Origin: a virus | Taxonomy: Duplodnaviria; Heunggongvirae; Uroviricota; Caudoviricetes | Length of the DNA: 8,796 nucleotides | IMG/VR virus record: IMGVR_UViG_2693429555_000008 | Strand: one strand, 5' to 3' | Shown here: positions 4,145 through 6,943 of the stretch, piece after piece | Layout of the letters: each line of letters starts with the position of its first letter | How positions within the stretch are numbered: position 1 is the first letter of the stretch | Made by a program: the position numbers and the translations under genes | Notes under the pieces: generated by a model | The model's database searches: none | The model's input: only the letters and a program-made list of their open reading frames with translations | Told to the model about the DNA's origin: nothing

Positions 4145-6943
4145 ATGTGGGGAAGTGAAAACAAACAAAATCTGGACGTACTGGATCCTGTGCAGTTGGT
4201 GCGTATCGAAGCGGTACACCGGGGGTTCCTTTACCAGCATCTTTACGCTGTAGGCTGCTTACTTTTGGCGCAGAGGGCAGCTATGGACTCAGTAACTGTC
4301 GAGCTTGATGAGGATATTGAGCTGAAATCCAAACAGGAACGTCTCTACATTCAGGTTAAAACCCGTTCAAAACCTATTATGCCCAACGATGTGTCGGGGG
4401 CTCTGGAGCGATTTGTAAAGCTCAGAAATGAGCATACTTCGGCAAACCGCGAAGGGGTGGCTTCTTTTGTGATTATTGTAAACCAGGCGCCTGGACCGCT
4501 GCTTCAGAAGATGATTGACGATAAAAAGCTTCCTTCTGATGTTCTTATTGTCTGGCCCCAGTCGACAGCTGGACGTCACCCGGCACTTCCGCCCGCATGG
4601 AGTACTCTGGCTGATGCGGCCACATGGTGTATCGCAGAAGCAGAAAAGCTGAAATTTTCACTATTGTCCCCAGAATCCTTGATTTGGAAGTTAGCAGGAT
4701 TGGTTCAGCTTGCCGCCACCGGAGGCGATACCAATGGACAACATACGTTTTTCACGGAAGAACTTACTGAACTATTTGAACAGTTGATCGTTCAGCTACA
4801 GGACTTTCCTGCACCACCAGCACTGTACCGCCCACAGAACGAAGAACCTTCTCTCACATCTGGTGAGCGGATCCGTATCCTTTGTGGACTCTCAGGTGCA
4901 GGCAAGACAGCTTGGGCCGCACAGGCCGCATTACACTCCACTGCACTTTGTGCTTATTACGACACCGGTGATCTTCCCGGTCCAGCTCTGGCCAGTACGC
5001 TGGTGCGCGAGATGGCTGCTAGATTTACAGCCCGTGACCAAGACGGTTTGCGCAGGATTTTGCTCCCCGGTGCCAGTGGTTTTGAGGCTCTTAGGAGTTT
5101 TGATACCTACCTGAAAGAGCAGGGTACCACCTTGGTGCTGGTTCTGGATAACGCCCATCGTGTACCTGCGGAAAATCTACTGGATGTTCTGAATGCAACT
5201 ACACATATTCGTTTTGTGCTGTTGTGCCAGCCTCACGAAAACGTTCGCGAACTGGAGGTCATGACGGGGCTACAGCGCGAGGGCCTGCAGGGATGGAATC
5301 TCGATACGGTAGCTGTCGTTGTAAACGATATCGGAGGATTTGCCACCGCTATGGGATACGAGCAGCTACGGGCTTACACTGGTGGTCTTCCCCTGTATGT
5401 AGAGAGCGCCGCAAAAATCGCCGTTTCTGATTATGAGCGTAATGTCGATGCTCTGTGTGCTGAACTCCAGCAACAAACCCATACTGCGGAAACCGCCCAA
5501 GAAATTATTCTGTCACGTGTATTTCAGGGATTTGAATCACTACTTCAGAGCGCGCTGGCATTGTTCAGTCTCTCTGACGTAGGGCTGAGTCGCGAAGAGA
5601 TTTCTACGCTCCTAATCAATTCGCTGAACATTTCACCAAGCAGTGCTGCTTCTTTAATTAGGAAAATGCGCGCTACTGGCACTATTGAAATTTATGGAAA
5701 CCAGACCCTGAAGGTACATGATGCTGTCAGGGGGCTAGGACTGCAACATCTGGAACTGATGGATCAGGGTATATCGAACAAAGCGCTACTAGCGCTGAAA
5801 GACCTTTTAGTTGAAAGTCTTCATAATACCCGCAATACAAAACGGTTATCGTTGTTGACTCAACTTTATATTAAGCTCAATGATGTCACGACGTTGATCG
5901 AACTCTCAGGCCAAGAAATGTTTTATGAGATGGGCGTGACGGTCGACATTCTTGCAAGCTTGGAGCGTGCTGCAACATCGGACTTATTGGGACCTGTTCA
6001 TAAATTCTGGGCATTGGATGGCCTTGTTTTCGTTGAGCTTAAAGACGGAATATCCGACCACATTGCTCAGAGGTTAAACATCATGGGAGCTTTACTTGCG
6101 GAGCACAAGTTCGGCTATCAAGAAGAGATGGCCTATGCAATGAAACGAATGTTATTTTCGGCAGAAAGCAATGATGCACGAGAAGTTCAAAAGCTGGCAC
6201 AGGAAGTCCGCCCCCAACTCCCAGATGAAGAACATAAACGCATCTTTGACTACAACCATGCCATTGCACTCTGGAGATTAAAAAAACTCAAGGATGCTGA
6301 AACATTAAGCTGTAATGTTATACAAGGGTACTATTCTTTATTTGGTATCACACCTGCTGATGTCATAGGAAAAAACGCCGACGCATTATGGAAAACTATT
6401 AATCATTCCGAAAATATGCAGGAACACTTTAAACATATGGCTGATGCTCTGGAGTTGCTGGCCAGAATTCGTGATGCGCAGGGAAAACTGTCACCATTAC
6501 TGCGTATTCATTCGATGAAGTTCTACAATCTGGCCATGGCCCCGGAATCCATGGTCAGGGTGGGCCAAGATCTGGCGGATGAGTTTGTTGCCATAAAGGA
6601 TTACGACGGTGCCAAGGAAGTCATGGAGCAACATGTCCTGCCGGTTGTCAATGAGGCAGGTCTAGTACATCGACTGATTCAGGTTCGAAGCCAATACGCA
6701 GTCATATTAGCACTATCGGGTCAGCATAAAGCAGCTGATGTCGAAATGCAGCGCCTTGCTCCCTATATCGAAGGCCTCACAGGTGTACAGCGTCAAGAAA
6801 TCCAAAATCAATCAAATTACATCGTACAGCTTGCCCATAAAGCAGCAAAGACTAAATTAACTGAAGTTTTTGGTGCGGTCGGCCGGAATGAACAATGCCC
6901 CTGTGGCTCGGGAATAAAGTACAAAAAATGTCACGGTGCCTGA
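4145..6943 (+). CDS. STAND/NB-ARC-like P-loop NTPase, 932 aa, with nuclease-like N-terminal domain, helical C-terminal region and terminal SEC-C zinc motif; candidate anti-phage defence protein
   Basis: Uninterrupted 2.8-kb ORF with its own Shine-Dalgarno. Walker A GLSGAGKT (4886..4909); Walker B-like LVLVLDNAH (5132..5158); [12 protein letters not shown] resembling an NB-ARC RNBS-B/TTR motif; GGLPLYV resembling the GLPL motif (5381..5398); C-terminal [14 protein letters not shown] (6896..6937) matching the SEC-C metal-binding motif. N-terminal GFLYQHLY and D/E-rich strand followed by QVK are compatible with a PD-(D/E)xK fold. GC content looks lower than in the flanking phage genes. Confidence 0.9.
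   Translation: [932 protein letters not shown]

What the first reader, a model, noticed from the sequence alone, without database searches (positions are those of the whole stretch)
6896..6937. C-terminal SEC-C-type zinc motif ([14 protein letters not shown]) at the very end of the protein
This CPCGSG-K-Y-K-x-CHG string is the metal-binding motif best known from the C-terminal tail of SecA. It is the last 14 residues of an otherwise helical sensor region, so it may act as a small zinc knuckle for nucleic-acid or protein interaction, or as a docking tag. Its presence on a STAND NTPase is unusual and may define a distinct family.
Basis: partly seen in the sequence, partly recalled or inferred. 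Interest (0 to 1): 0.65.

Follow-up and report, generated by a model that had tools for sequence, protein, structure and literature searches.

The report
SecA-type metal-binding tail on antiviral STAND nuclease
A prophage gene for a 932-residue NLR-like (STAND) nuclease, probably an anti-phage sensor, ends in a genuine and strongly conserved copy of the small metal-binding domain found at the tip of the secretion motor SecA; this tail is most likely a docking tag for a negatively charged host partner such as the ribosome or SecB, but nobody has tested that.

Summary
Window 6896-6937 encodes [14 protein letters not shown], residues 918-931 of a 932-aa ORF (4145-6943, +). One Ala follows the motif.

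- **Motif identity:** it is a bona fide SEC-C / SecA-like metal-binding domain (Pfam 38.8 bits against a cut-off of 20.4; 16/20 identical to the E. coli SecA tail). The conserved unit starts six residues earlier, at VGRN (6878).
- **Host protein:** a Cap4-type nuclease, then a STAND NTPase, then a TPR-like sensor. This is an Avs-like architecture. The gene sits in a lambdoid prophage and, in other genomes, in defence islands.
- **Conservation:** in 50 relatives at 28-71% identity only 21 columns are invariant, and six lie in the tail. A hypervariable linker precedes it.
- **Distribution:** the tail looks ancestral, yet about one third of full-length relatives lack it cleanly. Three lineages carry Lys/Arg-rich tails instead, the same pattern reported for SecA. 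The tail is therefore a selected accessory module, not a family-defining one.
- **Function (inferred):** a cationic docking tag for the ribosome, SecB or another polyanion.
- **Prior knowledge:** RefSeq already names the motif. I found no paper that discusses it on a STAND protein.

Interest is moderate.

The parts
4133..4137 (+). Shine-Dalgarno-like AAGGA, 7 nt upstream of the ATG
   Evidence: Read directly from the sequence
4145..6943 (+). Complete ORF of 932 aa, identical to RefSeq WP_000264572.1 'SEC-C metal-binding domain-containing protein'. It appears to be a single-gene Avs-like STAND system.
4178..4729 (+). N-terminal Cap4/DUF4297-type PD-(D/E)xK nuclease (residues about 12-195). D55, D57, Q70, K72 and R74 are invariant.
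4862..5464 (+). STAND NTPase core (residues about 240-440). It contains Walker A G248-LSGAGKT-255, Walker B D335 and the GxP-type P416.
5465..5764 (+). Helical and winged-helix segment (residues 441-540) with the nearly invariant H525-D526, an MHD-like motif
   Evidence: The MHD analogy is inference.
5765..6829 (+). Alpha-helical, TPR-like repeat sensor (residues 541-895)
6830..6877 (+). Hypervariable linker (residues 896-911). Mean column entropy is 3.14 bits against 2.16 for the whole protein, and pLDDT is low.
6878..6937 (+).
6938..6943 (+). Terminal Ala932 and the TGA stop codon

Best explanation
**What is shown.** ORF 4145-6943 encodes a tripartite NLR-like protein: a Cap4-type PD-(D/E)xK nuclease, a STAND NTPase and a TPR-like helical sensor. 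[quoted passage not shown] The gene lies in a lambdoid prophage between the replication genes and hokD/Q. In other genomes it sits beside Gabija-like and AbiH genes, with no conserved partner gene.

**What is inferred for the whole protein.** It works like an Avs protein. The sensor binds a phage protein, the NTPase oligomerises, the nuclease domains assemble, and DNA is cut.

**What is inferred for the tail.** It coordinates Zn or Fe and acts as a flexible cationic docking tag. It would bind the same kind of acidic surface that the SecA MBD uses. The likeliest partner is the ribosome near the exit tunnel; SecB, in organisms that have it, is an alternative or additional partner. This would place or prime the sensor where new phage proteins appear, a host-factor use comparable to Avs7 and EF-Tu. 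The tail tunes the system rather than being essential to it, because many relatives work without it.

**Confidence by step.**
- True SecA-like MBD under selection: about 0.95.
- Avs-like anti-phage STAND nuclease: about 0.8.
- Docking to ribosome, SecB or another polyanion as the tail's role: about 0.35-0.4.
For: - **MBD identity:** Pfam 38.8 bits against 20.4. 16/20 identical to the E. coli SecA MBD and 17/21 to the H. influenzae peptide crystallised with SecB, 1OZB.
- **Selection:** in 50 tail-bearing relatives (28-71% identity) only 21 of 932 columns are invariant. Six of them are C918, C920, S922, K925, K927 and C929; the others include nuclease residues D55, D57, Q70 and K72, and Walker residues K254 and D335. 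Tail entropy is 0.74 bits, against 3.14 for the linker and 2.16 overall. The tail is among the most conserved 20-residue windows of the protein, matched only by the N-terminal windows starting at residues 16-22.
- **Beyond the metal ligands:** the residues conserved in addition to the ligands are the Ser, aromatic and basic residues. In SecA these are surface-exposed, conserved even where SecB is absent, and implicated in SecB and ribosome binding (PMC6620043; 10.1101/613315).
- **Layout:** a flexible linker followed by a terminal MBD is the SecA CTT layout. AF2 gives no confident docking of the tail, with pLDDT 37-60.
- **Charge:** SEC-C tails carry a mean net charge of +5.5 over the last 25 residues. 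In three separate lineages the tail is replaced by a polybasic tail with 13-14 K/R in 25 residues, where the background frequency of 11 or more is 5e-5. SecA shows the same MBD-to-polybasic substitution, interpreted there as retained ribosome binding (PMC6620043).
- **SecB cannot be the only partner:** tail-bearing homologues occur in Sporomusa (Negativicutes) and in a human-gut virome contig. The validated lactococcal defence protein Rugutis also carries a SEC-C motif (PMC11381338).
- **Precedents:** Avs7 incorporates host EF-Tu (PMC13581612). The SecB-like chaperone CmdC senses new capsid protein (PMC11618068).
- **Defence context:**
- **STAND fold:**
Against: - No binding, metal or phenotype data exist for this protein or for any relative.
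- About one third of full-length relatives lack the tail (41 of 120 representatives, and at least 32 presence/absence changes on a rough NJ tree). Whatever the tail does is dispensable for the core mechanism.
- The isolated SecA MBD binds ribosomes only weakly (PMC6620043).
- In the E. coli clade, the first Lys of SecA's KKYK is Ile, Val or Leu. This could weaken SecA-like contacts.
- Anti-phage activity of the family is itself inferred. PADLOC (2023) has no full-length model for it. I could not check the supplementary tables of the 2026 Avs survey.
Confidence: 0.4

Rival explanations
1. The tail is a cis-acting regulatory switch. As with the SecA C-terminal tail, it would hold the protein in an autoinhibited state until released. 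Alternatively its Cys ligands or bound Fe/Zn would sense redox or metal changes during infection, as with the ROS-driven disulfide at Cys149 of YchJ.
For: The SecA CTT autoinhibits SecA, and MBD engagement relieves this (PMC6620043; 10.1101/613315). SecA-like MBDs prefer iron and are disrupted by azide (10.1101/613315). YchJ uses a Cys in its SEC-C-bearing C-terminus as a redox switch (PMC13377102). Avs proteins are known to be autoinhibited by their C-terminal regions (PMC13581612; 10.64898/2026.08.25.746987).
Against: The linker is the most variable part of the protein, whereas the SecA FLD binds a groove. AF2 does not dock the tail on the body. A scan of 7,064 column/class tests for residues that co-vary with tail presence found nothing that passes Bonferroni correction; the best was K824 at p 1.8e-5. 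Tail-less relatives are common and appear intact, so they are not obviously deregulated.
Confidence: 0.2
2. The tail is a nucleic-acid-binding zinc knuckle. It would help the Cap4 nuclease hold DNA after activation, or it would sense phage nucleic acid.
For: The tail is cationic, and polybasic substitutes occur in three lineages. YchJ, which carries two SEC-C motifs, binds DNA (PMC13377102). Two other SEC-C-tailed proteins in an E. coli defence island include a NERD nuclease-related protein.
Against: I found no report that an isolated SecA-type MBD binds nucleic acid. The tail sits at the opposite end of the polypeptide from the nuclease. The invariant non-ligand residues match the SecA surface residues rather than any known DNA-binding knuckle. 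SEC-C also occurs on many proteins with no link to nucleic acids.
Confidence: 0.15
3. The tail is an integrated decoy. It would mimic the SecA, YecA or YchJ MBD so that a phage factor attacking that host module is caught by the sensor, as in plant NLRs with integrated decoy domains.
For: The tail is nearly identical to host SecA MBDs across phyla, for example 19/22 with a Pyrinomonadaceae SecA tail. It sits at the end of the sensor arm of an NLR-like protein. The plant NLR-ID concept is from my own knowledge.
Against: I know of no phage factor that targets the SecA MBD. Replacement by generic polybasic tails fits docking better than mimicry. The same tail occurs on many non-immune proteins.
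Confidence: 0.07
4. The tail has no specific function. It would be a vestigial or purely structural cap inherited with the family.
For: It has been lost cleanly and repeatedly.
Against: Where retained, it is as conserved as the catalytic residues over 28-71% identity. That conservation includes non-ligand residues S922, K925 and K927, and it sits next to a freely drifting linker. A vestige would not show this pattern.
Confidence: 0.05

Closest known systems
SecA C-terminal metal-binding domain (E. coli SecA 878-901; PDB 1SX0/1SX1, 1TM6; H. influenzae peptide bound to SecB, 1OZB)
   Same: Both have CxCx8CH ligands, a conserved Ser two residues after the second Cys, an aromatic residue, a GRN lead-in and Lys-rich flanks. 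Both are terminal and follow a flexible, poorly conserved linker. Both are widely but not universally retained, and both are sometimes replaced by polybasic tails.
   Different: Here the domain is attached to a nuclease-STAND-TPR immune-type protein rather than a translocation ATPase. The first Lys of KKYK is Ile/Val/Leu in the E. coli clade. Metal content and partners are untested.
YecA (UPF0149) and YchJ (UPF0225), the other E. coli proteins with SecA-like MBDs
   Same: They carry the same terminal module on unrelated bodies, which shows the MBD is a portable tag. Both co-purify with iron (10.1101/613315).
   Different: They are small proteins with no nuclease or NTPase. YchJ is reported to be a redox-sensitive transcription factor (PMC13377102).
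Avs (antiviral STAND) proteins with Cap4 nuclease effectors: SeAvs3 (PDB 8DGC) and SeAvs7
   Same: They share the order of N-terminal Cap4-type nuclease, STAND NTPase and TPR-like sensor. They are single-gene systems found in defence islands or prophages. Foldseek to 8DGC gives E 1.4e-13. Avs7 uses a host factor, EF-Tu, as part of its complex (PMC13581612).
   Different: This protein is about half the size (932 aa against 2,028 for SeAvs3). There is no detectable sequence similarity to solved Avs proteins and no PADLOC Avs hit. Its NTPase is structurally nearest to MalT and PH0952. No SEC-C tail is mentioned for any Avs in that paper.
MalT and Pyrococcus PH0952 (STAND-TPR; PDB 8BOB, 6MFV)
   Different: They are a transcription regulator and an orphan protein. 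Neither has a nuclease effector or a SEC-C tail.
Rugutis, a lactococcal plasmid anti-phage protein
   Same: It is a validated defence protein with a SEC-C motif, triggered by the terminase large subunit. The role of its motif is unknown (PMC11381338; PMC13064643).
   Different: Its motif is N-terminal, the protein is 359 aa with a novel fold, and it has no STAND or nuclease domain.
Lamassu LmuA
   Different: No LmuB SMC partner is present in the window, and the rest of the protein is a STAND-TPR. It is not a Lamassu system.

Membership tests
SecA-like metal-binding domain (Pfam SEC-C, PF02810) | Profile score above the curated gathering threshold | tested here: met
   38.8 bits against 20.4, E 8e-10, residues 914-931 matching profile positions 1-18 of 19
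SecA-like metal-binding domain (Pfam SEC-C, PF02810) | CxCx8C(H/C) ligand spacing | tested here: met
   C918, C920, eight residues, then C929-H930. Relatives use either CH or CC.
SecA-like metal-binding domain (Pfam SEC-C, PF02810) | Conserved Ser (SecA S889) and aromatic residue (SecA Y893) | tested here: met
   S922 is invariant and Y926 is Tyr or Phe in 50 diverse relatives. The features are as defined in 10.1101/613315.
SecA-like metal-binding domain (Pfam SEC-C, PF02810) | Terminal position after a flexible, poorly conserved linker | tested here: met
   Linker entropy is 3.14 bits and pLDDT is 37-60. One residue follows the motif.
SecA-like metal-binding domain (Pfam SEC-C, PF02810) | Binds one Zn or Fe ion | not testable with these tools
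   Requires ICP-MS or spectroscopy of purified protein
SecA-like metal-binding domain (Pfam SEC-C, PF02810) | Binds SecB and/or the 70S ribosome | not testable with these tools
   Complex prediction with host proteins is not available here. Requires pull-down or co-sedimentation.
STAND NTPase | P-loop with Walker A and Walker B | tested here: met
   GLSGAGKT at 248-255 and D335. G251, G253, K254 and D335 are invariant.
STAND NTPase | STAND-type fold of the NTPase, helical arm and winged helix | tested here: met
Avs (antiviral STAND) systems | Tripartite architecture of N-terminal effector, STAND and C-terminal repeat sensor | tested here: met
Avs (antiviral STAND) systems | Association with prophages or defence islands | tested here: met
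   Lambdoid prophage. Gabija-like and AbiH neighbours in Vibrio, Pseudomonas and a second E. coli island.
Avs (antiviral STAND) systems | Sequence membership in a named family (Avs1-5, PD-lambda-4/Avs8) | tested here: not met
   No PADLOC v2 Avs or PD-Lambda hit at E<=1. No solved Avs found by profile search.
Avs (antiviral STAND) systems | Membership in Avs7 or Avs10-24, or in one of the 90 sensor clusters of Lee et al. 2026 | not testable with these tools
   The supplementary tables are not held. The main text does not mention SEC-C, SecA or zinc.
Avs (antiviral STAND) systems | Protects against phage and is triggered by a phage protein | not testable with these tools
   Requires plaque assays and a phage-gene toxicity screen
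Cap4/DUF4297 PD-(D/E)xK nuclease | Profile match and conserved catalytic D...(D/E)...QxK | tested here: met
Lamassu | LmuA encoded with an LmuB SMC-like partner | tested here: not met
   No such gene is present in the window or in the reference prophage

The most novel reading that the evidence does not exclude
The SecA-type tail couples an NLR-like phage sensor to the protein-synthesis or chaperone machinery. It would dock on the ribosome next to the exit tunnel, or on SecB loaded with newly made non-native phage proteins. The sensor would then sample phage structural proteins as they are made. This would be a second case of host-factor co-option by an Avs, after Avs7 and EF-Tu, and a bacterial form of co-translational immune surveillance. 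A rarer variant of the same idea is that the tail is an integrated decoy of the SecA MBD.
Probability: 0.22. Interest if true: 0.8.

Novelty: new variant of a known kind. Interest (0 to 1): 0.5.

Why it matters
Avs/NLR-like sensors are a major arm of bacterial immunity, and how they are positioned and kept quiescent is still being worked out. Structural use of host EF-Tu by Avs7 was reported only in 2026.

Here a portable SecA-type docking domain sits on one Avs-like family. It is retained under selection as strong as that on the catalytic residues. It also recurs on other defence-island proteins: Rugutis, PADLOC E2 and PDC-S12 profiles, and a NERD protein and a 778-aa protein in an E. coli ICE.

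This suggests a general way to plug immune proteins into the ribosome or SecB hub. It is cheap to test with a tail deletion, Cys mutants and tail swaps in a 2.8-kb single-gene system native to E. coli.

If the tail turns out to be a minor tuning element, the finding is an ordinary domain annotation that RefSeq already carries.

Tried and rejected
1. **Search for a cis docking site.** I ran 7,064 Fisher tests for alignment columns or residue classes associated with tail presence across 120 representatives. None passed Bonferroni correction; the best was K824 at p 1.8e-5.
2. **Taxonomy of distant tail-bearing representatives**, to test SecB co-occurrence. All ten looked up are unnamed metagenome proteins.
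3. **Genome scan.** It was useful only for showing that the tail exists in Sporomusa and that SEC-C is promiscuous.
4. **Recent capture from host secA.** The tail DNA gives no hit to E. coli secA, only a weak 35-nt YecA match. Rejected.
5. **Tail-less forms as frameshift artefacts.** L087 and L089/L090 have clean stops and no remnant motif in any frame. Rejected for these. P0058 and P0110 do look truncated or frameshifted.
6. **Membership of Lamassu, Hachiman, DUF4297-HerA or CBASS E2.** The hits cover only the nuclease N-terminus or only the SEC-C tail. Rejected.
7. **Literature.** I found no paper containing WP_000264572. I found none linking SEC-C to STAND or Avs. Brenes & Laub 2025 is not held.
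8. **Phage records.** The near-identity DNA search found nothing. The protein search found two virome contigs.
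Full report
**1. Observation**

Window 6896-6937 reads tgc ccc tgt ggc tcg gga ata aag tac aaa aaa tgt cac ggt, which translates to [14 protein letters not shown]. It lies in the only long ORF of the region, 4145..6943 on the + strand, 932 aa, which ends ...[24 protein letters not shown]. The motif is residues 918-931, and one Ala and the stop codon follow it.

Pfam SEC-C (PF02810) matches residues 914-931 at 38.8 bits, against a gathering score of 20.4, with E 8e-10. A search of PDB sequences returns the SecA zinc-domain peptides 1SX0/1SX1, 1OZB and 1TM6, and YchJ-C 9L6B. The tail is 16/20 identical to E. coli SecA ([20 protein letters not shown]) and 17/21 identical to the H. 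influenzae peptide that was crystallised with SecB.

**2. The protein that carries the motif**

- **Domain hits.** Pfam finds a Cap4 dsDNA-nuclease domain at the N-terminus, marginally (27.1 bits against 26.2), and AAA_22/AAA_16 at 239-364. PADLOC finds only LmuA/HamA/DUF4297-type similarity at the N-terminus and no Avs model.
- **Structure model.** An AlphaFold2 model built on 66 homologues has mean pLDDT 81.8. It shows an alpha/beta N-domain, a P-loop domain, a winged-helix region, helical repeats from 541 to 909, and a low-confidence tail.
- **Conserved residues.** Invariant or nearly invariant residues fit an active enzyme: D55, D57, Q70, K72 and R74 in the nuclease; G251, G253 and K254 in Walker A; D335 in Walker B; P416; and H525-D526.

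The architecture is that of Avs proteins with Cap4 effectors.

**3. Genomic context**

- The exact gene (99% identity or more) is in 16 of 5,426 complete E. coli genomes, annotated 'SEC-C metal-binding domain-containing protein', WP_000264572.1.
- It sits in a lambdoid prophage at tRNA-Ser/mtfA. Upstream are the replication-initiation gene and a frameshifted Ren-like/DUF977 gene. Downstream are hok/sok, DUF968, RusA and Q.
- A second allele, about 72% identical at the DNA level, accounts for about 35 of the 51 genomes that carry a full-length copy. In the genome examined (H34) it lies in an integrative island beside a Gabija-like OLD nuclease and UvrD pair.
- The V. cholerae homologue lies between AbiH, a Gabija-like pair and other ATPases. 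The Pseudomonas homologue lies next to AbiH in a metal-resistance mobile element.
- No neighbour is conserved across these contexts, so this is probably a single-gene system.
- Anti-phage activity is inferred, not shown.

**4. Conservation and distribution of the tail**

- Among the 120 closest cluster representatives (49-99% identity; Enterobacterales, Vibrio, Shewanella, Aeromonas, Pseudomonas, Variovorax), 107 keep VGRNxxCPCGSGxK[YF]KKCHG.
- An exhaustive phmmer search against 1.84 billion 50%-identity representatives finds 735 relatives, 287 of them at E<=1e-30.
- Of 120 full-length representatives, 78 have the tail (45 ending CH, 32 ending CC, 1 internal). One has a CxCx8CGC variant. Three have Lys/Arg-rich tails. 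Thirty-eight have nothing.
- Tail-less forms are scattered through the tree. Fitch parsimony needs at least 32 changes and puts 'present' at the root. The NJ tree is rough, so the count of changes is approximate.
- In three loci checked (L087, L089 and L090, encoding P0046 and P0114) the tail-less genes end in clean stops with no remnant motif downstream.
- In 50 tail-bearing members at 28-71% identity, only 21 of 932 columns are invariant, and six of those are C918, C920, S922, K925, K927 and C929. Mean entropy is 0.74 bits for residues 912-931, against 3.14 for the preceding linker and 2.16 overall. The tail is among the most conserved 20-residue windows of the protein, matched only by the N-terminal windows starting at residues 16-22.
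- The tail is therefore ancestral, under strong purifying selection where it is kept, and repeatedly dispensable.

**5. What the tail resembles functionally**

The published properties of the SecA MBD match this pattern closely.
- It has CxCx8C(H/C) ligands plus a conserved Ser and Tyr.
- It follows a poorly conserved flexible linker.
- It binds SecB and 70S ribosomes, with a crosslink to uL23.
- It is present in 117 of 156 SecA proteins.
- Where the MBD is missing, many SecA tails are highly positively charged, which the authors read as retained ribosome binding (PMC6620043; 10.1101/613315).

The STAND family shows the same substitution.
- SEC-C tails carry a mean net charge of +5.5 over the last 25 residues.
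- Three separate lineages end in tails with 13-14 K/R in 25 residues. Eleven or more K/R occurs in only 5e-5 of internal windows.

The tail also occurs where SecB is unlikely to be the partner.
- It is present on homologues in Sporomusa malonica and in a human-gut virome contig.
- Lactococcal Rugutis, a validated terminase-triggered defence protein, carries a SEC-C motif of unknown role (PMC11381338; PMC13064643).

**6. Most likely mechanism**

- **Shown:** the domain identities, the selection on the tail, the flexibility of the linker, and the genomic context.
- **Inferred for the whole protein:** Avs-like sensing of a phage protein by the TPR arm, NTP-dependent oligomerisation, assembly of the Cap4 domains, and DNA cleavage. 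This is by analogy with SeAvs3 and SeAvs7 (PMC13581612).
- **Inferred for the tail:** a metal-stabilised cationic docking tag for an acidic host surface. The ribosome is the first candidate and SecB is second, in proteobacteria. The tail would localise or prime the sensor without being required for its core action.
- **Precedents:** EF-Tu is a structural component of the Avs7 complex (PMC13581612). The SecB-like chaperone CmdC binds newly made capsid protein in CmdTAC (PMC11618068).
- **Confidence:** I put the docking reading at about 0.35-0.4.

**7. Rival explanations**

- A cis autoinhibitory or redox/metal switch, at about 0.2. The variable linker, the lack of confident intramolecular docking, and the lack of co-varying positions count against it.
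- A nucleic-acid knuckle, at about 0.15.
- An integrated decoy, at about 0.07.
- No function, at about 0.05. The conservation contradicts this.

**8. Is a SEC-C tail on a STAND protein unusual?**

SEC-C is a promiscuous terminal module.
- SecA, YecA/UPF0149, DUF1186, a radical-SAM/SPASM protein, a GT41 glycosyltransferase (N-terminal), TPR proteins and a DnaJ-TPR protein.
- Several PADLOC defence profiles (E2, E1-E2, PDC-S12), which contain a SEC-C-like segment near their C-termini.
- Two adjacent large proteins in an E. coli conjugative-element defence island. One is a 716-aa NERD protein. The other is a 778-aa protein that is 70% identical to one in Halioxenophilus.

The searchable literature contains no discussion of SEC-C on an Avs or STAND protein. 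The 2026 survey that defines at least 90 Avs sensor clusters does not mention SEC-C, SecA or zinc. Its supplementary tables are not available here, so I cannot say whether this family is among its clusters.

**9. Verdict**

It does not define the family, because a third of relatives lack it, and RefSeq already annotates it.

What this analysis adds is threefold: the strength of selection on the tail, its parallel with SecA tail evolution (including polybasic replacements), and its recurrence on defence-island proteins. Together these give a specific and cheaply testable hypothesis of host-machinery docking.

I classify it as a new variant of a known kind, with interest of about 0.5.

Noticed in passing
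window 7527-7826 and 8128-8427: There is a tandem duplication with a 601-nt period, 86% identical over 300 nt. It duplicates the small phrog_1212 ORF (7415-7822 and 8145-8423) and the start of the DUF968 gene. The reference E. coli prophage copy (L001) has a single copy.
   Followed up: partly
window 3493-3901: The Ren-like exclusion/DUF977 gene is split into two overlapping ORFs (3493-3768 and 3650-3901). This is a frameshift, and RefSeq also flags it as a pseudogene.
   Followed up: partly
window 7052-7376: A hok/sok type I toxin-antitoxin locus lies immediately downstream of the STAND gene. Rfam sok (RF01794) matches at 110 bits at 7052-7226, and the hokD ORF ends at 7376.
   Followed up: partly
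L092 2913-5063 and 5438-7774 (E. coli PSJ-14, NZ_AP027626.1): Two adjacent, unrelated large proteins in a conjugative-element defence island both end in SEC-C tails. One is a 716-aa NERD-domain protein ending ...[20 protein letters not shown]. The other is a 778-aa protein ending ...[20 protein letters not shown], which is 70% identical to a Halioxenophilus protein (L030). The island also carries HigA, a PIN-domain gene and two DUF262 genes.
   Followed up: partly
PADLOC profiles PDLC00833, 00865, 00870-00872 (E2/E1-E2) and PDLC04917 (PDC-S12): These defence-associated profiles contain a SEC-C-like segment at profile positions of about 165-216. Unrelated SEC-C proteins hit them only in that segment.
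   Followed up: no
P0164, P0238, P0257 (family representatives): These proteins carry Lys/Arg-rich tails (13-14 K/R in the last 25 residues) in place of the SEC-C tail. They fall in three separate branches of the tree.
   Followed up: yes
P0142 (1103 aa): In this family member the SEC-C motif is internal, at residue 918, and is followed by an extra C-terminal region of about 170 residues of unknown nature.
   Followed up: no
NZ_OZ546984.1 (H8) and L093 6770-7075 (E. coli S43): There are signs of gene decay in some strains. In one genome the gene is split by an IS3-like ISEc52. In another, the island keeps only a 101-aa 3' remnant that still carries the SEC-C tail.
   Followed up: no
window 4145-6943, residue 336: Walker B reads LVLDN, with D335 followed by a nearly invariant N336. 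There is no acidic second residue, which may mean slow or absent NTP hydrolysis, as in some STAND switches.
   Followed up: no
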